29,095 nt of DNA from a virus (Duplodnaviria; Heunggongvirae; Uroviricota; Caudoviricetes): the IMG/VR virus record IMGVR_UViG_2872158770_000007. One strand, given 5' to 3'. Under the pieces are notes generated by a model. It worked only from the letters and a program-made list of their open reading frames with translations. It was not told the DNA's origin and did no database searches. Shown one piece after another: positions 2,043 through 23,388 of this stretch. Each line of letters begins with the position of its first letter. Within the stretch, counting starts at the first letter, position 1. The position numbers and the translations under genes were made by a program.

Positions 2043-2477
2043 TCAATTCAAGTACTCCAATAGTTCCTGTACTATTCCGAGTAGTCTTTTTTTATCCTTT
2101 GCATTTGGTGATCTAATCTTACTCATCATTGCCAGATTCAAACATTCCGGTTTAAGCATCTGATGAAGGATCAGTATTGCCTCTACAATCATTACCTCTC
2201 GCATAGTTGCGAAGCACCATAGAATCGTTTTTGAGTACTGTTCACCATTTTCAATTTTGTTTTTAACGACATTGGAACTACTGAGGTACTCACGCCAGCC
2301 ATTTTCCTTTGAAGTGGGCTTTAGCTTTCTCGCATCCTTAACCCGCTGATAGATTTGCTTAGCACCGACATAATTAGAACCATCCTCAAACTGAAAGATA
2401 TAAACGAAACCAGCATATTCACCGGATAACATTTCCTCCTCGCTCCAATCATCCGAGTATTTCCATTCACTCATCAT
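2043..2477 (-). CDS. putative GIY-YIG-like nuclease domain protein
   Basis: 144-aa ORF. GFVYIFQFEDGSNYVGAKQ has the Y-I-F ... Y-V-G spacing (about 10 residues) typical of the GIY-YIG motif, followed by a conserved Arg. Weak, motif-level only. Confidence 0.35.
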   Translation of the reverse strand: MMSEWKYSDDWSEEEMLSGEYAGFVYIFQFEDGSNYVGAKQIYQRVKDARKLKPTSKENGWREYLSSSNVVKNKIENGEQYSKTILWCFATMREVMIVEAILILHQMLKPECLNLAMMSKIRSPNAKDKKRLLGIVQELLEYLN

Positions 2478-2513: not shown

Positions 2514-2963
2514 ATGAGCGATTTAAAAACACGATTAAAAGAATATGAAGGTACTAAAGAGTATCAGGCAAATTTGAAGTACTTCAGAAATGGGAAATTC
2601 TATCCATATGCTGATAGTTTAGGATGTAGTACTATTGTATATGGTCACTTAATTCAGGCGGGAGAAGATTTTAGTACTGGCATTACTGAAAGCGAAGCAG
2701 ACAAGTTACTATCTCGCGATTTAGCCAAAACAATTATGCAGGTACAGACATTAGGGTTAAATCTTCCCGATGACTGGAATGATTTTATTATTATCATGAC
2801 CTTCCAGTTAGGTATTGGCGGGGTGAAGAAATTCCGTAAGATGTTAGCAGCCCTGAAAGCACATGATTACCTTGAAGCAATTAAACAGGCTAAGTGTTCT
2901 CTATGGTACAGGCAGACACCAAACCGTGTGAATTCCATGATTGCAGTACTTAAAAACAAATAA
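2514..2963 (+). CDS. phage lysozyme (endolysin), T4 lysozyme-like glycoside hydrolase family 24
   Basis: 149 aa. Collinear with T4 lysozyme: YEG (Glu11 equivalent), YADSLG (Asp20), STIVYGH (Thr26), ITESEADKLLSRDL versus T4 ITKDEAEKLFNQDV, and C-terminal SLWYRQTPNRVNSMIAVL versus T4 SRWYNQTPNRAKRVITTF. Confidence 0.9.
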   Translation: MSDLKTRLKEYEGTKEYQANLKYFRNGKFYPYADSLGCSTIVYGHLIQAGEDFSTGITESEADKLLSRDLAKTIMQVQTLGLNLPDDWNDFIIIMTFQLGIGGVKKFRKMLAALKAHDYLEAIKQAKCSLWYRQTPNRVNSMIAVLKNK

Positions 2964-2969
2964 AGAAAA

Positions 2970-3004
2970 GGCATAGTACGAATGACATACTATGCCTTTT
3001 TTTA
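2970..3004. terminator. bidirectional rho-independent terminator between convergent genes
   Basis: Perfect 9-bp stem ggcatagta / tactatgcc (2970-2978 and 2988-2996), 9-nt loop, then a T-run on the plus strand 2997-3003. An A-run (aaaagaaaag) precedes it, giving a U-tract for the minus-strand transcript. Confidence 0.7.
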
Positions 3005-3274
3005 TGGTCGTTGTTTCTGCTGAAGAATTGCAATAATCCTTTCAATCTTAACATCAAGTTCATGGATTTGTGTTTCCAGTTTACTTAGTGTATCTCTCAT
3101 CTTATCCTGATCATCCTCAATACGGGAAATACTACTTTCCAGTACAGCAATGGTAGTTTCAAGAGTAGCAACGCGAGTTAATAGATCATTCGTATCCTTT
3201 GTATTATCTCTAAAGATAGTATAAAGGAATACGCATCCAGAAATAACAAGAGCTAAAATAGCACCGATATCCAT
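3002..3274 (-). CDS. membrane-anchored coiled-coil protein (spanin-like or holin-like; function unproven)
   Basis: 90 aa. N-terminal hydrophobic segment AILALVISGCVFLYTIF followed by a heptad-like charged region (LETTIAVLESSISRIEDDQDKMRDTLSKLETQIHELDVKIERIIAILQ). AAGGGA-like Shine-Dalgarno about 8 nt upstream of the ATG. Confidence 0.4.
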   Translation of the reverse strand: MDIGAILALVISGCVFLYTIFRDNTKDTNDLLTRVATLETTIAVLESSISRIEDDQDKMRDTLSKLETQIHELDVKIERIIAILQQKQRP

Positions 3275-3338: not shown

Positions 3339-3993
3339 AATACCCTGTAAATGTCGCCAATGCTATCTGGATACCATTATTCCCCATTGCCTGGCGGTAG
3401 GTTTTCTGGTTCTTTGAAACGTACTGTAGACTGAATGAAGTACTGGAATTACGCCTGATAACCAGACCAGAGTACCCAATTACTGTACCATCATCTGATA
3501 TGTTCCCCGGACATTGTGACCAGCAGAACCAGGGATCAGCTACTGGAGACGTTACCGTAATGGCAGTACTGAGATCGGTAGCCGCAGGTGCTGTCAAAAA
3601 TCCCCTGATACGTGGCATTGTTGCCGCTGATGCAGCAGACCAGATTAAAGTACCTTCTTCACTGAACACATCAAGAAAACCAGATGTGGGGGTAGCCGTG
3701 TGACTACTTGTCATGAACCTGCCCATGCCAGGCTGGAACATATAGGCACCAGGGAAACACCATGCCCCGTCTTTCTGTATCTGGAACCAGTACTGTGTTG
3801 TGTTCCTGTTAGCTACTACTGATGGCATAACGAAACCGAGCGATCCACCATTACCGAAGGCACAGGTAAAGCCTGTGTAGTATCCCGTATCAGTTAGATT
3901 TCCCATGGCCTTTACTGCACCCGTCATTATCGACTTGTTAGTACTATCTATAGTCAGTGCACCCGCTGAATTATATACCTCGAAACCTGCCAT
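3337..3993 (-). CDS. tail-associated hypothetical protein (paralogue of the adjacent 98-aa protein)
   Basis: 218 aa, immediately downstream of the J-like gene. N-terminus MAGFEVYNSAGALTIDSTNKSI aligns with MAQGLQCWNAAGVLVVDLTDYNI of the upstream gene. Gly/Thr/Ser-rich, beta-rich composition typical of fibre or receptor-binding proteins. Confidence 0.45.
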   Translation of the reverse strand: MAGFEVYNSAGALTIDSTNKSIMTGAVKAMGNLTDTGYYTGFTCAFGNGGSLGFVMPSVVANRNTTQYWFQIQKDGAWCFPGAYMFQPGMGRFMTSSHTATPTSGFLDVFSEEGTLIWSAASAATMPRIRGFLTAPAATDLSTAITVTSPVADPWFCWSQCPGNISDDGTVIGYSGLVIRRNSSTSFSLQYVSKNQKTYRQAMGNNGIQIALATFTGY

Positions 3994-4448: not shown

Positions 4449-9399
<4,951 letters not shown>

Positions 9400-9400
<1 letters not shown>

Positions 9401-10023
9401 TACTTGTATTTCCAGTTCTGATTTTGATTAACTTGACCTAACAGACTAAAGTACTCATCATTTCTATAGTAAGATTGATATACTGAGTTGGCGGCAATTA
9501 ATGCAGGTTGTCTGTCTAATTTCTTATAGACAGAATTCACATATATAGTCATTTCGTTTTGCTTCTGATTTGGATCAGTTACTGCCTGTACATAGTCAAT
9601 AAACCCCGTAAACATGAGCATTGAATCAATTACAGTACTATCATATGGATTGAGAATTACTAACTTGATATTCATCTGTGCATCTTTCAAGAAACCACCA
9701 AGGGCAAGAGCACGAACCGAGGCGTTTACATTGCTAATTTTAAAATTGATAGCATCATTAGACATGCCCTTTTGTTCAGAATATGAAGGTAATGAACCAC
9801 TGATAATGTCGGGGAAACTTATGTACTTATAACCATCCAGATCTATATCAATTAGTGAATCCGTCCAGTGAAAACCATTAGTACCTTTTGGTAGTACATC
9901 AAAACAAGTAACATTAACGCCTAAGCTCATAATTTCCATTAGTGTTAATCTTGTCTTGGTTGTACCTCTGACTAACTTCCAGTACTTAAGAAGATTAGCA
10001 TTAGTATATATACCTGAGTCCAT
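9400..10023 (-). CDS. minor tail protein, lambda gpL-like
   Basis: 207 aa, second gene after the tape measure. Weak collinearity with gpL. Start and stop overlap the neighbouring genes, suggesting coupling. Confidence 0.45.
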
Positions 10024-10580
10024 TAGATGATATTCTCCGTTGCTTTCAATGTAATATTCATGATGTTCCCAATAGGCAATGAATAATCATTGTCTGGATC
10101 TAATACAGCCTCGATCATGAGATTGTTATATTTGAGTGCTTCACTTGCCTGTACTGTATTTTGTAGAGCAGGGAAAATAGTAATTGAAGTACTGGTACGT
10201 TCTACGATTCGATATAGCTTATTGTGATTGGAAAACTGTACCCACTCACCCACAGCTAATGTGTTAGTACTGATAGGTACAACCATATTACCCGGTTTAG
10301 TGAGAGCAGTAGCGGTTACTGCACCAGTCTGTTTACCGTAATATGTACCTGCAAGCCCCAATGACATAGTGAAAGGTTTGCCCTGTGCATATTGAGCTAA
10401 AAAGCTATTCACTTCATTTAGTGATGCAGGATTAAAATTAAGGGTGAACTGAATTTGATAGTATTGAATTCCAGTACTTCTCATGATACGTTGACCTGTC
10501 CATGTTTGATTAGAATAGATCGGTTCAGTACTTTTAATTTGAAAGTTCGTTACTTTTATTTGATTTGAAAAGGATGCCAT
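10023..10580 (-). CDS. minor/distal tail protein, lambda gpM-like
   Basis: 185 aa, first structural gene after the tape measure module. Assignment is by position and weak motif similarity. Confidence 0.4.
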   Translation of the reverse strand: MASFSNQIKVTNFQIKSTEPIYSNQTWTGQRIMRSTGIQYYQIQFTLNFNPASLNEVNSFLAQYAQGKPFTMSLGLAGTYYGKQTGAVTATALTKPGNMVVPISTNTLAVGEWVQFSNHNKLYRIVERTSTSITIFPALQNTVQASEALKYNNLMIEAVLDPDNDYSLPIGNIMNITLKATENII

Positions 10581-10680
10581 TTTGTTACCTCGAATATCTT
10601 CTTTCTTTATTTATTTAAAAACCTCGATTCGTATTTTTTTTAACAGGCTTGATTGGCAGGCTGCATCCGTCATCGTTGCT

Positions 10681-11154
10681 ATGTTGTTATTTGCAGGCCA
10701 AATAGGCTATAACGCATATGATAAATGGAAAGAAAGTTCAGATGATGTTTTTAAGATGCGTGTAATCTTATTGAGCGAAATCAACAATAACCTTTTAGCT
10801 CTTGCTACTGGTGGCGATGAGTCTCAGGTGTTAGGCACATATGAAATATGTATTCCTCTTCCAACTGAAGATACAGAAGCTATTAAAAGAGTAGCAACTG
10901 CCGTTTCTTATTTGCATGATGATGTATATTATTCCCAATTAGAAAAATTAGCATCACTCCCAAAAAAAGAAGTAGATGCCATCGTAAAGAGTTATTATTC
11001 ATTATCGAGATTACGTACTCTTTCAACACAGCTTGCATACAATATTAAATACTCACCACCTAAAGTTAAATTATTGCGGGAAGAGTATTACAATCTCTAT
11101 ACCCTTTCATCTTCTCTTTCACAATATTTGTCTTATCACACGGAAAATCCCTAA
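10681..11154 (+). CDS. opposite-strand moron: hypothetical protein
   Basis: Only long ORF in the 585-bp gap between tape measure and gpM-like gene, on the opposite strand. The ATG at 10681 is preferred over the track's TTG at 10582, which abuts the divergent gene start. Predicted helical protein with no recognisable catalytic motif. Confidence 0.4.
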   Translation: MLLFAGQIGYNAYDKWKESSDDVFKMRVILLSEINNNLLALATGGDESQVLGTYEICIPLPTEDTEAIKRVATAVSYLHDDVYYSQLEKLASLPKKEVDAIVKSYYSLSRLRTLSTQLAYNIKYSPPKVKLLREEYYNLYTLSSSLSQYLSYHTENP

Positions 11155-11164
11155 CTGGGCTTTC

Positions 11165-13378
11165 TTATGTATTACGTTTTTGACTACTTCTCACAGCTTG
11201 AGAAACACTATTGGCGTGTTTCTTAAGCATCTCATTAAATTTCTTGTCATCATCAGCTACATCACCCTGGATGATCAATGGTGCGTTAACGGTAATATCA
11301 CCTGAAGTACTTCCACCTTCTTGTTTATCCAAGAATGCTGTTAATTTCTTATTCGCTTCAGGCTGCACCACTCTCTCGCCCTGCTTAAGTACAAATGATT
11401 TGTTGTCATAACTTGCTGGTAGTTCATCTACCCCGCCATGGAACTGACCAGCAGCAGCACCCTTTGCAGTACTAATAATCGACATACCAAGTGAAAGTAC
11501 TTGTGCATAGTTTGCCAATGAAGCTGGCCAAGGGGTAGCGAGTGCTTGGGCCAATGCTGACTGAATTGAAAGTACTGTCTGTGCAATGCTTATGCTCTTA
11601 CTTAGGGTAAATGCAGCTTGTGCAGCCCCACTACTTTCCCCAAACGCATCAACCATGCCCTGTGATAGTGACTGTGCAGTACTTGAGAAGATACTTAACT
11701 GATCCTGTGCATTCTGGTTACTGATTTGGATGGCCTGTGCATTGTACTTTGCCGTGATCTCAGCTTTACGTTTCTCATAGTCCTCATGGCCTTTCAGCAA
11801 CAACTCATTCTGCTGAAGTTCAGCATTCATAGCATCAGCGTTATCTTTCAACTTCTGATCGGTATCGTTATAGGCTAATGGATTACCACCATTGATACGC
11901 TGATTCTGTTGCTGTGCCAGATACCCCTTCTGATTGTCATTGAGTAGACCGGAACCAATAAGAGCATTGGTATCTTTCAGACCCTGATTAGGATCTTGAT
12001 AACCAACCATTGAATTCAGTAAATCAGTACGTTGTTTAGCACCATATGCAGTAGCGTTCTTTAGCATTTCATCAGGATTGATACCGAGTACTTGAGCACT
12101 ATCGGTGATGGTTTTAAGAAGTGCCTTTTGTTGTCTGTCGAACTGCTGTAGACGTACCTGAAAACCATCTTCCCCAACTTGAGCAAGAGCAGCTTCCAGA
12201 TTACGTTGAGCCTGTAGGCGTTTTGCATCTGCCGCCTTTTGTGCCGCTTCTGCCTGTTTACGTTGTTGTTCTAACTTCTTCGCTGCATCTTCAGCTTCTT
12301 TTGCCTGATCAACCCATCCGCCAGTAGGAGCGGTAGCAACCGCAACATCGGACTTTAGGTTGTTTGCCAGTTCTTCTAAACGTGCCTTAGCCTGAGCGAA
12401 CTCATTACCCTTGTTGCCCTTATCATCCATGATGCCAGTATTGAGTGCTGCACCCTGGTAGTTTAATGCCCCTGCTGTACGTAATTTTTCCCAGATATCC
12501 AACATATCCTGTAGAGAACCCTTGGAAGTTTTAATACGTTCATTCAGATCTTCAAACAAACCTGCCTCGTGAGGTTTTTGATTTGCAGCATCATAGACAC
12601 TGTTCATGGCATTAACTAAAGGTGATAGGCCATCAGCAATAGTACCTTTAATGCTGGTAGTAAGTTTCCCAAGGTTTTTATCGAATTCAGCATATTTTTC
12701 AGCAGCATCATTAGTTACTTCAGCATTTTGTGACTGGATATAGGCTGTAGCTTGAGCCTCATTATTGAACTGCTGAAGAGTACTAATCATGTGGCTTGAG
12801 TCACTGGCTAACGTTTCCATTACGTTAACTATTTCACTCTGTGATTTACCTGCATCACGCATGGCGTAAAAGGTGTGGATCACAGCCTGCATACCACCAT
12901 CAGCCTGTTTTAAGTACTTGTTATAGTCCTGTAGGTTGAGTCCATATTCTTTAAGATCATCGGATACACCACCGCCAGCACGAAAAGCATCACCGAGCTT
13001 ATCCAAGGTATCCTTGTTGAAATCACCAAACTTATCAATCTCAAGACCGAGGCCACTAAACGCCGCTGATAGCTGTTGTAACTGAACCACGGACAATCCG
13101 GTACTCTTACTGATCTGGTTCATTTCACGCACATATTCACGTGATGATTCTACTAATGCTGCCAGGCCACCAATACCAATAGCCGCAGCACCCGCGATCC
13201 CGGTCATAGCAGTACCGAACCCGCCAGCCATACCAGTTATTCGGCCTGTGAACTCTTCAACAATGCCACCAGCAGTACTACCAAATTCCTCTAATGATTC
13301 AGTACCAGACCTTAAAGCACGCTGTAAACCGGAAGAATCACCCGTAATATCTACACGTATTCTATTATTATTTGCCAT
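11165..13378 (-). CDS. tail tape measure protein
   Basis: 737 aa. Gly/Ala-rich N-terminal region (GMAGGFGTAMTGIAGAAAIGIGGLAAL) and long coiled-coil Q/A/K-rich repeats, directly downstream of the G/GT chaperone pair. Length implies a long non-contractile tail. Confidence 0.85.
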   Translation of the reverse strand: MANNNRIRVDITGDSSGLQRALRSGTESLEEFGSTAGGIVEEFTGRITGMAGGFGTAMTGIAGAAAIGIGGLAALVESSREYVREMNQISKSTGLSVVQLQQLSAAFSGLGLEIDKFGDFNKDTLDKLGDAFRAGGGVSDDLKEYGLNLQDYNKYLKQADGGMQAVIHTFYAMRDAGKSQSEIVNVMETLASDSSHMISTLQQFNNEAQATAYIQSQNAEVTNDAAEKYAEFDKNLGKLTTSIKGTIADGLSPLVNAMNSVYDAANQKPHEAGLFEDLNERIKTSKGSLQDMLDIWEKLRTAGALNYQGAALNTGIMDDKGNKGNEFAQAKARLEELANNLKSDVAVATAPTGGWVDQAKEAEDAAKKLEQQRKQAEAAQKAADAKRLQAQRNLEAALAQVGEDGFQVRLQQFDRQQKALLKTITDSAQVLGINPDEMLKNATAYGAKQRTDLLNSMVGYQDPNQGLKDTNALIGSGLLNDNQKGYLAQQQNQRINGGNPLAYNDTDQKLKDNADAMNAELQQNELLLKGHEDYEKRKAEITAKYNAQAIQISNQNAQDQLSIFSSTAQSLSQGMVDAFGESSGAAQAAFTLSKSISIAQTVLSIQSALAQALATPWPASLANYAQVLSLGMSIISTAKGAAAGQFHGGVDELPASYDNKSFVLKQGERVVQPEANKKLTAFLDKQEGGSTSGDITVNAPLIIQGDVADDDKKFNEMLKKHANSVSQAVRSSQKRNT

Positions 13379-14113: not shown

Positions 14114-14587
14114 TTATTCGCCCGATTCTGGTTTTGGAGTAATCAGACCTGAATCAATTGCTTCACCATCAACTGCAAGGGTGAAAGTCTTAGTTACTAC
14201 TTCATCTTTATCACCACCGATAGTGGTACTTGAAACAAAGCAGGTATAAATTACAAAGAAACCTTCTTTTTTAGTTGCATCGGTAAAATAGCTTAGTTTT
14301 ACCTGACAACGTTTCTGATCGTCTGCAAGTTGTTCTAAATTCTGATGTACTGCATTATCTGGTAAGTAGTTAACTGCAAGAGAAATGTCCGGGATTGACT
14401 TAGTACCCAATAGCTTACGATCATAAGCATTATTGAATGTTTTTACGCTAATTACAGTACTTTCAAAGCCTGAAGTACTGAAGGTGTTTACCTCTGGTAC
14501 TTCTACAAAGTCAGTAGCAACTGTTTTACCAGCACTTGAACCTACTTCTACAGTAAGGTTAGCACCGGAAAAAATATCCATAGCCAT
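14114..14587 (-). CDS. major tail tube protein
   Basis: 157 aa, immediately upstream of the G/GT chaperones (conserved position of the major tail protein). Followed by a terminator. N-terminal ~145 aa paralogous to the N-terminus of the 883-aa protein. Confidence 0.65.
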   Translation of the reverse strand: MAMDIFSGANLTVEVGSSAGKTVATDFVEVPEVNTFSTSGFESTVISVKTFNNAYDRKLLGTKSIPDISLAVNYLPDNAVHQNLEQLADDQKRCQVKLSYFTDATKKEGFFVIYTCFVSSTTIGGDKDEVVTKTFTLAVDGEAIDSGLITPKPESGE

Positions 14588-14645
14588 AGTTTTATATCCT
14601 TATAAGAAAATTTTATTGGAGTGAATCCGTTCACCCCGTTTATAT

Positions 14646-17297
14646 TTATTTATTATTTAATAGCTGTTGTACTAAATCTTTTAGCTGATTAATTTCTTCT
14701 TGTTGGGCTTGAATAGCTCCCATCAAGTCCATCACTATTGGATTTAAATCAACACGTGGATGATCACGAGTGACAATCTCCCCTTCTATTTCAACTGTTT
14801 CTTCATCATGCTTAATGTACTGCGGAGCAGTCAACTCAGCATCTTCGGCGATAACACCAAACCTAACCCTTTCTTGTTCATCATCCTTGTAGATAAACGT
14901 TACTAAATCTTGTGACATTATCCGATCTAATGCTTCAACTGGATTTGCTGGAGTTATGTCTCTTTTAAACTCACGACCTGATGTACCTTGAGCTTGCATT
15001 ACTAACCATCCAAACCATGTTGTACCGTTCCCGCCTCGTACTCTTAAAGTACCACCACCGTCTATCTGAAGCTGAGAGCGATTTGCCCCTGGGTATCTTT
15101 GCATGTGCAATAAAGGGGAATATTTTTCACTATAGTTAATACCTGAGTCACCTGGCCCTGCATACATACCGTTAAAGGTGATGGTATTGGCATCTGTCGG
15201 TCCCGAAACAGCGGTATTAGTCATCCATCCTGATTGAACATCAGTTAGGATCGTTCCAGTCGGCCCTTTTAGCCCCCATAGTTTATCCTCTGCACCATTT
15301 TCAGAAATAAAAAGGGTGAGATCAGCCTGTCCAGTCTGTCCCATCGTTTTACCAACCCGAAAACCACCAGATATTTCAGTTGATGTACCAATGTTGCATA
15401 TCGAACGAATACGCCCTCCAGTTACATAACTACCAATTGCCGTAGAGGAAGGGGAAGAAGCAATAACATCCCATTGAGGACTAACTGAAGTACGACTACT
15501 CAGCAAGTTTTCAACCCAGCGTTTGGTAGTCGCGTCAGAATCAGAGACAGGATCTCCTGCTAAAGAAGTTGCACCCGTAGGACGAATCGCAGGCCATAAC
15601 TCAGCCTGAGTCTTAACACCAGTACCGCCCTGCGGAATTGCTAATGCTTTCCAGCCAGTGAAAGCACCCGCAATATATGTAGCTGAACCCCATTGCCCTC
15701 CATCATAAACCACTAATGCAGCGGAAGAATCAGCGGATTTAATAGTTGTTAAATTACTACCTTGATTAAAGCGATCCACCTGAAAGTTTAGGCGAGCACT
15801 CAAAGCATCTGTAGCCCCTGTCCCCCCCTGACCTATACCTAAAGCAATCCATCCAGTACCAGTACTTGCACCCCATGCCCCGTTATCCTGAATTCGGATA
15901 CGGTTAGTCAGGTCATTACTCATCAGATCGGTGTACGTAGCACCCTGAGTCAAACGGTTCACCTGTAGGTTAGTACGTGCTGTAGAGAGACTGGATAGAT
16001 CAGAAAGGTTACTCGCTTTCTTCATGGAAGCGGAATCAAGGGAAGTAATACTGTCAGCTAAAGCCGTTACCTCTGCATCTACTTCATCCATTGAGTAAAC
16101 AGCAAGGTTAATACGTGCTTCTTCCACGTCCCCCAGATCACTTAGATTACCTGCTATCGTAAGCTGGGCATCATCTGTAACCTTCCCTAAGCCAACATCA
16201 GTACTGGTAAGTACTACATCCTCACTGAGTACATGACCGTTGACCATACGTGTATCAGGTACTGAACCTGTATCTTCACTACTCAGTACTACATTTTCAC
16301 TAAGTACATGACCGTTCACTGTACGCGTGTCAGGTACTGAACCTGTATCTTCACTACTCAGTACTATATCTTCACTGAGTACATGACCATTAACTGTCCG
16401 TGTATCTGGTACAGAGCCGGTATCAGTACTGGTAAGTACTACATCCTCACTTAGAGGCTTACCATTCACAGTACGTGTATCAGGTACTGAACCTGTATCT
16501 TCACTGTTCAGTACTAAATTGGCCGTGAGTGCATGGCCGTTGATGGTACGTGTAAGGGGTACGTATCGCCCGTCCATCTGTGTAGCGGTATATATGCGTG
16601 TCCAGGCGGTTGTAGCGTTCTTTGCATAGATACTTAGAGTACCCGTCTTTGTCATCGCAAGAGAACTTACAGTAGTGCCATCTACAAGCCCTACTCCCAT
16701 CAGATCCGCCCCGGCAGGATTGCCTGCTTGAGATGATGGTACTTTGATGAAGCTGTTACCCGTAGGTACTGATGGTGAGTACTGAGGTACATCCGTAGTG
16801 TTCGAACCTAAACCGTAGTCCCCCTGATAGATTGGCGATAGTGCGTTAATGGTCATTGCACGTGCGATCACATCATGTGGGGCAAAACTGTATGCCTTGG
16901 TTACTACTGAACCTTTATCACCGTCCAACTTATAAGAGGTGATATAACCATTCACCATCGCATAAGTAATGGTATTTTCATCCTTATTCATCTGGTACTG
17001 AATGATGATCTGGAAAAGCTGCTGAGACTTAGCGGCATTATCCAAGAATTGATGTGTAGGATCATCAGGTAGGTAGTTAACTACAATATCAAATGGTGCT
17101 ACTGATTTATCAGATAGTAGTACTGTCCTGTAATCACTATCATACGTTTCAAAATTATTTGCTTCTGAATTTATTGTTAAGGTTGGAAAAGTATTAATCT
17201 GTTTAATTACTACATTGCCTGCTCCCTGTGGTGTTCTGTTACCAATATCAGCATTATACTGTACTGATAATTCTCTTCCTGAGAAAATATCACTCAT
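14646..17297 (-). CDS. tail-tube-domain protein fused to a repeat-containing fibre with C-terminal intramolecular chaperone (peptidase S74-like) domain
   Basis: 883 aa. Residues 1-150 align with the 157-aa tail tube protein (DIFSG..L.V, NTF.T, VNYLPDD..HQ.L, GDK..VVTK). Five tandem 25-aa repeats (PDTRTVNGHVLSEDVVLSSEDTGSV). Phage-fibre motifs GQGGTGATDALSARLNFQV and PQGGTGVKT. C-terminus SGREFKRDITP...RFGVIAEDAEL...QEEINQLKDL resembles the self-cleaving chaperone of tail fibres and endosialidases. Confidence 0.6.
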   Translation of the reverse strand: MSDIFSGRELSVQYNADIGNRTPQGAGNVVIKQINTFPTLTINSEANNFETYDSDYRTVLLSDKSVAPFDIVVNYLPDDPTHQFLDNAAKSQQLFQIIIQYQMNKDENTITYAMVNGYITSYKLDGDKGSVVTKAYSFAPHDVIARAMTINALSPIYQGDYGLGSNTTDVPQYSPSVPTGNSFIKVPSSQAGNPAGADLMGVGLVDGTTVSSLAMTKTGTLSIYAKNATTAWTRIYTATQMDGRYVPLTRTINGHALTANLVLNSEDTGSVPDTRTVNGKPLSEDVVLTSTDTGSVPDTRTVNGHVLSEDIVLSSEDTGSVPDTRTVNGHVLSENVVLSSEDTGSVPDTRMVNGHVLSEDVVLTSTDVGLGKVTDDAQLTIAGNLSDLGDVEEARINLAVYSMDEVDAEVTALADSITSLDSASMKKASNLSDLSSLSTARTNLQVNRLTQGATYTDLMSNDLTNRIRIQDNGAWGASTGTGWIALGIGQGGTGATDALSARLNFQVDRFNQGSNLTTIKSADSSAALVVYDGGQWGSATYIAGAFTGWKALAIPQGGTGVKTQAELWPAIRPTGATSLAGDPVSDSDATTKRWVENLLSSRTSVSPQWDVIASSPSSTAIGSYVTGGRIRSICNIGTSTEISGGFRVGKTMGQTGQADLTLFISENGAEDKLWGLKGPTGTILTDVQSGWMTNTAVSGPTDANTITFNGMYAGPGDSGINYSEKYSPLLHMQRYPGANRSQLQIDGGGTLRVRGGNGTTWFGWLVMQAQGTSGREFKRDITPANPVEALDRIMSQDLVTFIYKDDEQERVRFGVIAEDAELTAPQYIKHDEETVEIEGEIVTRDHPRVDLNPIVMDLMGAIQAQQEEINQLKDLVQQLLNNK
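16180..16560. repeat. tandem 75-bp direct repeats (about 5 copies) inside the fibre gene
   Basis: The unit tcaggtactgaacctgtatcttcact... recurs at 16255, 16330, (variant) 16405 and 16480. It encodes the 25-aa protein repeat. Confidence 0.85.
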
Positions 17298-17314
17298 CCT
17301 TTATATCCTTTTAG

Positions 17315-17706
17315 TTATCTTGTCTTTTCCGTAACTTGAATATTTATCGTAAAGGATAGGGAAACCGAGCCAGTTATAGGATCTGTGACAATATCGGATT
17401 GTTCATAAGAACACGAAAGCATTATTAAACCTGCATCACTGAATGCTGAAGTTTTCTCTTTATCAAAAGTACTAATAATCTGATCATAAGTGATGGATGG
17501 GGCTGTATTACCTGATTCTGGTTTAGGGGAAATCAGATACTGAATTGCAAAGTTACCTGCCCGGCGTTCATTGCTGAAACTTAAACTCGTTAATGAGTAA
17601 TCAAAAGCAATTTGTTCAAATACATCAACATCACGTGATACTGTCAGATTCTTAGTAGCATTGATAAGCTGCTTCATCGTATTCCGTACTTTTTGTACTA
17701 ACATCA
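17315..17706 (-). CDS. hypothetical head-tail joining protein
   Basis: Located between capsid and tail genes. Start moved to the ATG at 17706, just after the upstream stop; the track's N-terminal 26 residues overlap the previous gene in another frame. Confidence 0.35.
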
Positions 17707-17708
17707 TA

Positions 17709-18032
17709 TTAGTAGTCCTCTGCAAATGAAGCACCAGCAGAAGTACGGAAATAGCAATTAACCATACCTGATAGATCATCTTCAATGTTATAGATTGTCT
17801 GGTTTACACCATCAATGATTAGTACTGTACCAATTGCCACGTTTGCGGTTATTAGATCGTCCTTTCTGATTGTTAGGTATGTTTCCACGCTTTCGATAAA
17901 TCCACCTGCCGCCTCAATAGAAACGGGAAGTACTTCTACTATTCCTGTAAAAGTACTTCCCGTACAAGTTTGGATAGACTGACCGAAAGCATTTAGAAAC
18001 GCATCACACTGCGTATCTTTAAATACTCTCAT
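17709..18032 (-). CDS. hypothetical head completion/connector protein
   Basis: 107-aa ORF immediately downstream of the capsid gene. Assignment is positional only. Confidence 0.35.
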   Translation of the reverse strand: MRVFKDTQCDAFLNAFGQSIQTCTGSTFTGIVEVLPVSIEAAGGFIESVETYLTIRKDDLITANVAIGTVLIIDGVNQTIYNIEDDLSGMVNCYFRTSAGASFAEDY

Positions 18033-18045
18033 TATCTAATCCTTA

Positions 18046-23388
<5,343 letters not shown>

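What the first reader, a model, noticed from the sequence alone, without database searches (positions are those of the whole stretch)
10581..11164. Opposite-strand moron inserted between tape measure and distal tail genes
In lambda-like tails the gene after the tape measure follows directly. Here a 585-bp insert carries a single plus-strand ORF (about 157 aa from the ATG at 10681) antisense to the whole structural operon. Such morons are typically lysogen-expressed accessory genes (superinfection exclusion, abortive infection, virulence).
Basis: inference. Interest (0 to 1): 0.5.

Follow-up and report, generated by a model that had tools for sequence, protein, structure and literature searches.

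The report
Antisense cargo gene in tail operon
A real, selected gene for a small membrane-anchored protein sits backwards between two tail genes of a defective Shigella-type prophage, in a slot that related phages leave empty or fill with other backward genes, and it is most likely a host-protecting (phage-exclusion) accessory gene of an uncharacterised family.

Summary
A 584-bp gap between the tape measure gene (11165-13378, -) and the distal tail gene (10023-10580, -) carries one + strand ORF. The gene probably starts at TTG 10582 (190 aa), not at ATG 10681, which lies inside the predicted membrane helix.

It is a real gene: dN/dS is 0.09-0.22. It stays intact in two decayed prophage remnants, in Citrobacter and Enterobacter, where the flanking tail genes are frameshifted or truncated.

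Among 35 related viral loci, the same junction is empty in 21. It holds this family in 6, a DUF6216 membrane protein in 4 and a DUF726 hydrolase-like protein in 4. Every cargo gene is antisense. Near-identical phages differ sharply only in this cassette.

The protein has a basic N-terminus, one membrane helix and a four-helix bundle (AF2 pLDDT 84). It has no Pfam, PADLOC or PDB relative. Remote homologues sit beside a TIR defence candidate (PDC-S66), DUF4238-Pers and methyl-directed restriction enzymes on integrative islands.

So the moron reading is supported and extends to a cargo hotspot. Function is inferred only: most likely envelope-level phage exclusion or defence. Neither a promoter nor expression in a lysogen was shown.

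The parts
10582..11154 (+). Cargo (moron) gene, 190 aa. It encodes a basic N-terminus, one hydrophobic helix (about residues 25-47) and a C-terminal four-helix bundle. The family is uncharacterised (weak phrog_3829 hit).
   Evidence: ORF listed. dN/dS 0.09-0.22. Homologues. AF2 model with pLDDT 84. Hydropathy. phrog_3829 E=1e-5.
10654..10722 (+). Region coding the predicted membrane helix (residues about 25-47, WQAASVIVAMLLFAGQIGYNAY).
   Evidence: Single Kyte-Doolittle peak in every family member, with K/R enriched on the N-terminal side. In the AF2 model, helix 25-75 is continuous with the bundle.
10570..10574 (+). AAGGA, a Shine-Dalgarno-like sequence 7 nt upstream of TTG 10582. It lies inside Dit codons 3-4 on the other strand.
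   Evidence: Read directly from the sequence. Invariant in 4 aligned loci, but also constrained by the Dit N-terminus.
10587..10591 (-). GAGGT, the Shine-Dalgarno sequence of the Dit gene. It lies inside codons 2-4 of the cargo gene, so the two back-to-back translation starts overlap.
   Evidence: Sequence. Junction comparison.
10608..10614 (-). ATAAATA heptamer (degenerate TATAAATAC motif), 29-34 nt upstream of the Dit ATG. It marks the Dit-side boundary of the cargo slot. In this family it is read on the other strand as codons I-Y-L/I-K.
   Evidence: Found at the same position in 30 of 35 related loci, whether empty or occupied.
11142..11164 (.). Imperfect hairpin GGAAAATCCC-TAACT-GGGCTTTC between the convergent stop codons. 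It marks the TMP-side boundary of the slot. Its left arm encodes the last codons (E-N-P) and its loop holds the TAA stop. It is weak in the window and strong in relatives.
   Evidence: Fold energies: window -7.2 kcal/mol (+ strand) and -9.4 (- strand); relative L023 -15.6 kcal/mol, z=-3.8. The same hairpin ends DUF6216 cargo genes (..RKP*).
10456..10464 (+). Candidate extended -10 promoter element, TGATAGTAT, about 110 nt upstream of the start and inside the Dit coding sequence. It is a hypothesis only.
   Evidence: My own scan. The block also encodes the conserved Dit peptide IQYYQIQF, so its conservation is uninformative. It was not reported by the consensus scan. It lies inside the segment retained by both remnants.
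11165..13378 (-). Tape measure protein gene, the upstream flank in the late operon. Its stop codon is 10 nt from the cargo stop codon.
   Evidence: phrog_13674 E=5e-86.
10023..10580 (-). Distal tail protein (Dit, T5 pb9-like) gene, the downstream flank in the late operon.
   Evidence: phrog_1302 E=8e-17 and PF21430 E=0.0025.

Best explanation
ORF 10582-11154 is a genuine accessory (moron) gene. It occupies a recombinational cargo slot between the tape measure and distal tail genes of an enterobacterial siphophage lineage.

SHOWN:
- It codes for a protein under purifying selection.
- The slot is bounded by a post-TMP hairpin and an ATAAATA motif upstream of Dit. In relatives it is either empty or filled by one antisense gene from at least three unrelated families.
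- Alleles are swapped between otherwise near-identical phages.
- The gene outlives the tail genes in prophage remnants.

INFERRED:
- The product is a bitopic inner-membrane protein. Its basic N-terminus faces the cytoplasm and its four-helix bundle faces the periplasm.
- It is made from the + strand in the lysogen. Convergent late transcription would silence it on induction.
- It protects the cell against other phages at the envelope. The most likely mechanism is interference with formation of the DNA-injection conduit at the inner membrane. This is superinfection exclusion in the manner of HK97 gp15, P22 SieA or Sie2009, with allele-specific target range.
For: Real gene:
- dN/dS is 0.092 (dS 0.72) against Citrobacter, 0.13 against Enterobacter and 0.22 against Dryocola.

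Insertion and hotspot:
- Of 35 loci found through Dit, 21 are empty (31-257 bp; one of them also has IS1 inserted in Dit). Six carry this family, 4 carry DUF6216 and 4 carry DUF726. All cargo genes are antisense.
- In DCP80, TMP and Dit are adjacent.

Cassette exchange:
- L015 vs L017 have flanks 91-100% identical but the ORF only 51-66% identical.
- L018 vs L004 have flanks 95-100% identical but the ORF only 46-64% identical. The drop is sharply bounded at the ORF ends.
- ORF dN against Dryocola is 0.36, versus 0.08-0.15 for seven flanking genes.

Host retention:
- The Citrobacter remnant keeps only window 9764-11530 and the Enterobacter remnant only 10171-11395.
- In both, Dit is frameshifted and the TMP is reduced to its last 77-120 residues, yet the ORF is an intact 190 aa.

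Protein architecture:
- There is one hydrophobic peak, with K/R on the N-terminal side, in all 14 family members examined.
- The AF2 model has pLDDT 84.3 and pTM 0.68, with helix 25-75 running into a four-helix bundle.

Defence association of remote homologues (hhalign probability 99% and 97%):
- One sits 38 bp downstream of a TIR protein matching PADLOC PDC-S66 (E=2e-112), next to an integrase.
- Others sit downstream of DUF4238-Pers, in an island that also holds methyl-directed restriction enzymes II and IV.

Precedents:
- HK97 gp15, a tail-operon moron, is an inner-membrane Sie protein (PMC3594210).
- Tab, Tai and TERi are defence genes transcribed antisense to lytic operons (PMC10884400, PMC11364771, bioRxiv 10.1101/2025.02.27.640495).
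Against: - No expression evidence exists. The consensus scan found no + strand sigma-70 promoter and no terminator, and the window's hairpin is weak.
- There is no hit to any PADLOC, Pfam or NCBIfam model.
- The fold is a generic helical bundle with no significant PDB or BFVD match, so the function rests on context alone.
- Topology is inferred only from the positive-inside rule, and the hydrophobic peak is moderate (KD 1.52).
- The allele does not co-vary with the adjacent TMP or Dit, so a link to those proteins is not indicated.
- The defence association involves remote subfamilies (19-27% identity) and few loci.
- Purifying selection measured between lineages may largely predate the decay of the remnants.
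- A second lone + strand gene in this prophage, the lysozyme at 2514-2963, shows that antisense orientation alone does not prove lysogenic expression.
Confidence: 0.5

Rival explanations
1. It is an abortive-infection or membrane-effector protein rather than an entry blocker. The membrane-anchored bundle would sense or respond to infection, alone or with a partner, and collapse membrane integrity. In remote relatives it would serve as the effector partner of TIR or DUF4238 proteins.
For: - A remote homologue, P0012, lies 38 bp downstream of a ThsB-like TIR protein (PDC-S66) on the same strand.
- P0018 and P0020 follow DUF4238-Pers genes.
- Single-pass membrane effectors are common in signalling defence systems (general knowledge).
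Against: - In the prophage slot the gene stands alone, with no partner in the cassette.
- P0016 occupies the same ICE slot without the TIR gene.
- The positive-inside rule puts the bundle in the periplasm, away from cytoplasmic signals.
- There is no PADLOC effector hit.
Confidence: 0.17
2. It is a lysogenic-conversion gene unrelated to phages. It would be an envelope protein that improves host fitness, for example through stress tolerance, immunity to colicins or contact-dependent toxins, or host interaction, as lambda Bor and Lom do.
For: - It is retained intact in prophage remnants in two genera.
- It is predicted to locate to the envelope.
- The other cargo families in the slot, DUF6216 and DUF726, have no known defence role.
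Against: - Sharp allelic replacement between near-identical phages and elevated dN are more typical of antagonistic co-evolution.
- Remote homologues lie among defence genes.
Confidence: 0.18
3. It serves the phage's own lytic cycle. It could be a class III holin, an i-spanin-like lysis protein or an entry/assembly helper. Both holins of that class and i-spanins are N-in/C-out single-pass proteins with helical periplasmic domains. It would be transcribed from the + strand like the lysozyme gene.
For: - Its topology and size resemble T4 holin T and Rz-type i-spanins (my own knowledge).
- The only lysozyme gene in the window, 2514-2963, is also a lone + strand gene.
Against: - It is absent from 21 of 35 related phages and replaced by unrelated genes in 8.
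- It is intact in remnants that have no virion genes.
- Homologues occur on non-phage integrative islands.
- It matches no holin or spanin model.
- Candidate holin (856-1149) and Rz-like (3002-3274) genes exist elsewhere in the window, though with weak scores.
Confidence: 0.06
4. It is not a functional gene. It would be a chance or decaying ORF on the antisense strand of a long intercistronic spacer.
For: - No promoter or terminator matched the consensus.
- No annotated family matches it.
Against: - dN/dS is 0.09-0.22 with dS of 0.7 or more.
- The frame is full-length and open in all 15 or so loci and in three divergent allele types.
- A confident AF2 fold comes from a 13-sequence alignment.
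- Remote homologues are found at E=4e-5 to 4e-45 in a library of 1.84 billion proteins.
Confidence: 0.02

Closest known systems
HK97 gp15 moron (Cumby et al. 2012; PMC3594210)
   Same: Both are accessory genes inserted in the tail-gene operon next to the tape measure gene. Both are absent from related phages. [quoted passage not shown]
   Different: - gp15 lies between the tail assembly chaperone and TMP genes; this gene lies between TMP and Dit and is antisense.
- gp15 is a small YebO-like protein; this one is 190 aa with a four-helix bundle and shows no detectable homology (no Pfam hit).
- Function and expression are untested here.
P22 SieA (PMC10883804)
   Same: Both are prophage-encoded and of similar size (162-164 aa for SieA). 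[quoted passage not shown] It exists as three sequence types less than 30% identical, which parallels the divergent alleles seen here (45-60% identity between types).
   Different: - SieA has three predicted transmembrane helices and a conserved cytoplasmic motif; this protein has one helix and a predicted periplasmic bundle.
- The genomic locations differ and there is no homology.
Antisense prophage defence genes in lytic operons: Tab (JBD26), Tai (phi80), TERi (Listeria)
   Same: In each case the defence gene sits inside or interrupts a lytic operon and is transcribed from the opposite strand, so it is on in the lysogen. In TERi, the locus is a hotspot with alternating unrelated genes.
   Different: - Those proteins are cytoplasmic, target virion assembly or packaging, and need a cognate counter-defence gene in the lytic operon.
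- No co-varying partner is seen next to this cassette, and the product is predicted to be membrane-anchored.
Defence hotspots of P2-like and P4-like elements (Rousset et al. 2022, cited in PMC10884400)
   Same: Both have conserved flanks with a variable cargo that is either empty or drawn from several unrelated families, exchanged among close relatives.
   Different: - This slot is in a siphophage tail module between TMP and Dit.
- It holds a single antisense gene.
- None of its three cargo families is a recognised defence system.
Periplasmic four-helix-bundle sensor domains of chemoreceptors (Tar, PcaY, PilJ)
   Different: - The matches are generic: designed bundles and talin score higher, and Foldseek finds nothing at E<=0.001.
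- This protein has no second transmembrane helix and no signalling domain.
- There is no sequence similarity.

Membership tests
Moron (Juhala/Hendrix definition) | Present in some phages and precisely absent from close relatives at the same junction. | tested here: met
   Of 35 related loci, 21 are empty and 14 occupied. In empty loci, Dit follows the TMP after a hairpin and the TATAAATAC motif.
Moron (Juhala/Hendrix definition) | Own promoter. | tested here: inconclusive
   The consensus scan found no + strand sigma-70 site. The only candidate is an extended -10, TGATAGTAT, at 10456-10464. Reduced synonymous divergence in Dit codons 1-40 among carriers is ambiguous.
Moron (Juhala/Hendrix definition) | Own terminator. 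| tested here: inconclusive
   The window hairpin at 11142-11164 is weak (-7.2 and -9.4 kcal/mol, no T-run). The homologous hairpin in L023 is strong (-15.6 kcal/mol, z=-3.8).
Moron (Juhala/Hendrix definition) | Base composition differs from the neighbouring genes. | tested here: inconclusive
   GC is 0.344 for the ORF, against 0.439 for the TMP but 0.369 for Dit and 0.346 for the next gene.
Moron (Juhala/Hendrix definition) | Expressed from the repressed prophage. | not testable with these tools
   This needs RNA-seq or a reporter assay in a lysogen.
HK97 gp15 / YebO family | Sequence homology to gp15/YebO. | tested here: not met
   hmmscan against Pfam-A found 0 families at E<=0.1. The homologue searches returned only unnamed proteins.
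Lipoprotein Sie proteins (T5 Llp, Cor, TP-J34 Ltp) | N-terminal signal peptide with a lipobox cysteine. | tested here: not met
   The only cysteine is C90 and the N-terminus has no lipobox (sequence).
Superinfection exclusion proteins in general | Blocks DNA entry of superinfecting phage without killing the cell. | not testable with these tools
   This needs phage challenge, adsorption assays and K+ efflux or DNA-entry assays.
Thoeris-like TIR plus effector systems | An adjacent TIR (ThsB-like) gene. | tested here: not met
   The window gene is flanked only by the TMP and Dit genes. A TIR neighbour occurs only with the remote homologue P0012 and is absent for P0016.
PHROG 3829 (unknown function) | Match to the family profile. 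| tested here: met
   E=1e-5, 26.4 bits, residues 21-143. The match is weak and the family carries no functional annotation.
Holin class III / Rz-type i-spanin | Match to holin or spanin profiles, a position in the lysis cassette and, for a spanin, an o-spanin partner. | tested here: not met
   No Pfam or PHROG lysis hit. The gene lies in the tail module and is absent from most relatives. Candidate holin and Rz-like genes lie elsewhere in the window.
4HB_MCP sensor domain | Sequence-profile match and a second transmembrane helix leading to a signalling module. | tested here: not met
   No Pfam hit. There is a single hydrophobic peak. The fold resemblance is only generic.

The most novel reading that the evidence does not exclude
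The TMP-Dit junction of this enterobacterial siphophage lineage may be a previously undescribed single-gene, always-antisense defence hotspot. Its conserved hairpin and ATAAATA motif would serve as recombination anchors. The window gene would then found a new family of stand-alone, membrane-anchored four-helix-bundle anti-phage proteins. The same family also rides ICE integrase-proximal slots and pairs with TIR (PDC-S66) or DUF4238 genes. In that case DUF6216 and DUF726 cargo would also be new anti-phage genes.
Probability: 0.3. Interest if true: 0.65.

Novelty: new member of a known kind. Interest (0 to 1): 0.45.

Why it matters
If the inference holds, three things follow.
- It adds a new protein family, and two sibling cargo families (DUF6216, DUF726), to the set of prophage-encoded phage-exclusion or defence genes in Enterobacteriaceae, including Shigella, Klebsiella, Citrobacter and Enterobacter.
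- It defines a simple, searchable slot (TMP stop, hairpin, cargo, ATAAATA, Dit) in which to mine further accessory genes.
- The natural allele swaps between near-identical phages are ready-made material for mapping specificity, and this bears on phage-therapy host-range failures in these genera.

If the function turns out to be unrelated to phages, the finding is still a well-documented case of a gene domesticated from a decaying prophage.

Tried and rejected
- Megablast of the region found nothing in the phage collection or in complete E. coli genomes. tblastn of the ORF against phages found nothing.
- Pfam, NCBIfam and PADLOC gave no hit for the ORF.
- The first AF2 run, with 5 close sequences, was unusable (pLDDT 44). 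Only the 13-sequence alignment gave a confident model.
- The search for related loci with the 13-sequence alignment failed because no stretch was conserved enough.
- TATAAATAC as a repeated phage promoter motif was rejected for the window: 18 matches at 1 mismatch against 16.6 expected. It is conserved only at the Dit junction across relatives.
- Conservation of the candidate promoter block cannot be used as evidence, because it encodes the conserved Dit peptide IQYYQIQF.
- The other genes in the two remnants gave no informative defence hits, apart from a methyltransferase.
- The paper that mentions DUF6216 in an H-NS and immunity context could not be opened.

Full report
**1. Observation**

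The window carries a minus-strand structural block:
- portal, protease-capsid fusion, tail tube (14114-14587), chaperones;
- tape measure (TMP) 11165-13378;
- distal tail protein (Dit) 10023-10580, a 207-aa tail protein, a DUF6950 protein and a J-like tip protein.

The TMP matches phrog_13674 (E=5e-86). Dit matches phrog_1302 (E=8e-17) and weakly matches the T5 pb9 B domain. Between the TMP stop and the Dit start lie 584 bp (10581-11164). This gap holds one long ORF on the + strand, 10582-11154.

**2. Gene model**

Several results point to TTG 10582 (190 aa) instead.
- Between the window and the Dryocola locus, substitutions upstream of 10681 are mostly third-position changes, and the peptide ..FF.(R/N)L(D/N)WQAASVI.. 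is conserved.
- TTG 10582 is the only canonical in-frame start upstream of 10681, and the frame closes at a TGA at 10561.
- Divergent alleles each keep a start codon at the extreme 5' end: TTG in four loci, ATG one codon later in L030/P0006, and ATG overlapping the Dit start in L024.
- Remote homologues all have a basic N-terminal segment before the hydrophobic helix.

An AAGGA lies 7 nt upstream of the TTG, inside Dit codons 3-4. The Dit GAGGT lies inside cargo codons 2-4. The two back-to-back translation starts therefore interlock.

**3. It is a real gene**

Nei-Gojobori dN/dS values:

| Comparison | dN/dS | dS |
|---|---|---|
| Window vs Citrobacter | 0.092 | 0.72 |
| Window vs Enterobacter | 0.13 | 0.75 |
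| Window vs Dryocola | 0.22 | 1.6 |

The family is small. Only 5 clusters were found in 5.8 billion proteins, and only 11 representatives with E<=1e-3 in 1.84 billion. The full-length members are 179-218 aa.

**4. It is an insertion, and the site is a hotspot**

Searching viral contigs with Dit gave 35 loci with 42-100% Dit identity. I located the TMP stop in each and inspected the junction.

| Junction content | Loci |
|---|---|
| Empty, 31-129 bp | 19 |
| Empty, with IS1 inserted in Dit | 1 (L031) |
| 257-bp gap, no antisense ORF | 1 (L052) |
| Window family (190-191 aa) | 6 |
| DUF6216 multi-pass membrane protein, 208-225 aa (Pfam E about 1e-23) | 4 |
| DUF726 / alpha-beta-hydrolase-like protein with GHSLG, 260-280 aa (E=4e-12) | 4 |

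Every cargo gene is antisense to the tail operon. None matches PADLOC.

Empty junctions read: TMP stop, GC-rich hairpin, TATAAATAC, about 25 nt, SD, Dit ATG. Occupied junctions keep the ATAAATA heptamer at the same distance from Dit, in 30 of 35 loci. They also have a hairpin abutting the TMP stop. The window family and the unrelated DUF6216 cargo share the same hairpin (GAAAGCCC/GGGCTTTC). Its arm encodes their last codons (..ENP*..RKP*). In the distant cultured phage DCP80, TMP and Dit are 36 bp apart.

**5. Cassette exchange**

All eight additional loci found through the ORF itself are syntenic. Sliding-window identity shows the following.
- L015 vs L017: flanks 91-100% identical, ORF 51-66%.
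- L018 vs L004: flanks 95-100% identical, ORF 46-64%.
- In both pairs the drop coincides with the ORF ends.

Against Dryocola, ORF dN is 0.36, versus 0.08-0.15 for seven neighbouring genes at comparable dS. There are at least three allele types, 45-60% identical to one another.

**6. Survival in prophage remnants**

In Citrobacter cronae, only window 9764-11530 survives, inside a small island next to modABC and a split HAD-hydrolase gene. In Enterobacter sp., only 10171-11395 survives, next to IS3-family and recombinase fragments. In both remnants:
- Dit is broken into 2-3 frames;
- the TMP is reduced to its last 77-120 residues;
- the ORF is an intact 190 aa, at 87% and 84% identity.

Both remnants keep at least 411 nt upstream and at least 241 nt downstream of the ORF.

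**7. The protein**

Each family member has a single hydrophobic peak. K/R residues are enriched on its N-terminal side and the C-terminal side is neutral or acidic. By the positive-inside rule this predicts N-in/C-out. That is an inference.

With a 13-sequence alignment, AF2 gives pLDDT 84.3 and pTM 0.68. The model has helix 6-22, a continuous helix 25-75 (the membrane helix running into the bundle), a loop carrying the conserved C-x-PLP-x-x-D-x-EA motif, and helices 97-125, 128-153 and 159-187. Together these form a membrane-anchored four-helix bundle.

**8. Remote homologues**

Profile-profile comparison links the prophage group to two other subfamilies, with probability 99% (E=2e-18) and 97% (E=8e-11).
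- P0012 (E. coli) lies 38 bp downstream, on the same strand, of a TIR protein. That protein matches PADLOC candidate PDC-S66 (E=2e-112) and ThsB models, and sits next to the integrase of an ICE-like element. This pair occurs in 6 of 5,426 complete E. coli genomes.
- P0016 occupies the same slot without the TIR gene.
- P0018 and P0020 follow DUF4238-Pers genes. The P0018 island also carries methyl-directed restriction enzymes.
- P0017 sits between recombinases, and P0013 is in a small islet.

The family therefore rides the cargo slots of several kinds of mobile element, often among defence genes.

**9. Expression signals**

- The consensus scan finds no + strand sigma-70 promoter and no terminator in 9900-11900.
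- The window's hairpin (11142-11164) is weak. The homologous hairpin in L023 is strong.
- A candidate extended -10, TGATAGTAT, lies at 10456-10464. Its conservation is explained by the Dit peptide IQYYQIQF, so it is uninformative.
- Among carriers of this family, synonymous divergence in Dit codons 1-40 is 26% of that in the rest of Dit, against 73% among empty loci. This could mean an embedded regulatory region. It could equally mean a co-transferred recombination tract.

Lysogenic expression remains unproven.

**10. Interpretation**

The moron reading is supported and strengthened: this is one occupant of a cargo slot.

Taken together, five observations best fit a prophage-encoded envelope protein that excludes or defends against other phages:
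- membrane anchoring;
- allelic turnover;
- retention in remnants;
- defence-island neighbours of remote relatives;
- published precedents, namely HK97 gp15, P22 SieA with its three divergent types, and the antisense Tab/Tai/TERi genes (PMC3594210, PMC10883804, PMC10884400, PMC11364771, bioRxiv 10.1101/2025.02.27.640495).

I favour an injection block at the inner membrane. An abortive-infection effector role, or a conversion function unrelated to phages, cannot be excluded. A lytic-cycle role (holin or i-spanin-like) is unlikely for three reasons. Most relatives lack the gene. It persists without virion genes. Candidate holin and Rz-like genes lie elsewhere in the window.

**11. Verdict**

This is a genuine gene of an uncharacterised family in a known kind of element. 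It is a useful lead rather than a surprise.

Noticed in passing
window 7390-8642 (with 4449-7385 and 8640-9003): An IS911 copy, 99.5-99.8% identical to E. coli copies, splits the J-like tail-tip gene into an N-terminal part of about 121 codons and a C-terminal part. The gene is an intact 1067 aa in the Dryocola relative and uninterrupted in IMG/VR copies identical to the window. The window's prophage is therefore defective.
   Followed up: yes
window 10608-10614 (- strand); L020-L054 around position 3467: An ATAAATA / TATAAATAC motif sits 29-34 nt upstream of the Dit start in 30 of 35 related loci, whether the slot is empty or occupied. It resembles the T4 late-promoter box or a -10 element and follows a post-TMP hairpin. 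It is not enriched elsewhere in the window (18 matches against 16.6 expected). Its function is unknown.
   Followed up: partly
window 10613/10614; L007, L008, L009: Three independent Shigella sonnei short-read contigs start exactly at 10613/10614, inside the ATAAATA motif. The protein cluster of 38 'partial' sequences begins there too. This suggests a repeat boundary, either a second related prophage sharing the Dit side or an IS insertion in those strains. It was not resolved.
   Followed up: no
window 2514-2963 (+), 2043-2477 (-), 2487-2495: The T4-type lysozyme gene is a second lone + strand gene inside the minus-strand block. It lies next to a GIY-YIG (SegE-like) homing-endonuclease gene and is preceded by TATAAATTC 19 nt upstream of its ATG. 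The same arrangement is seen in the Dryocola prophage.
   Followed up: partly
L023, L033, L047 around 2827-2860; window 11142-11164: Unrelated cargo genes (the window family and DUF6216) end in the same hairpin. Its arm encodes their last three codons and its loop holds the stop codon. This points to a shared portable 3' module or recombination anchor. DUF726 cargo genes carry a different, stronger hairpin.
   Followed up: partly
L055 6090-7657; L059 5973-7546; L064 526-2094: Remote homologues of the window protein form recurrent same-strand pairs with a TIR protein (PADLOC PDC-S66, currently listed as a single-gene candidate) and with DUF4238-Pers proteins. These may be unrecognised two-gene systems.
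   Followed up: partly
window 14646-17297 (-): An 883-aa protein with a Peptidase_S74 (intramolecular chaperone, tail-fibre type) domain is encoded between the head genes and the tail tube gene. This is an unusual position for a fibre gene.
   Followed up: no
PQ671644.1 (L019) 14463-18124: Phage DCP80 is filed under Straboviridae (141 kb) yet carries a siphophage-type TMP-Dit module related to this prophage. Its Dit ORF (record 16914-17462) is unannotated. The record may be chimeric or misclassified.
   Followed up: no
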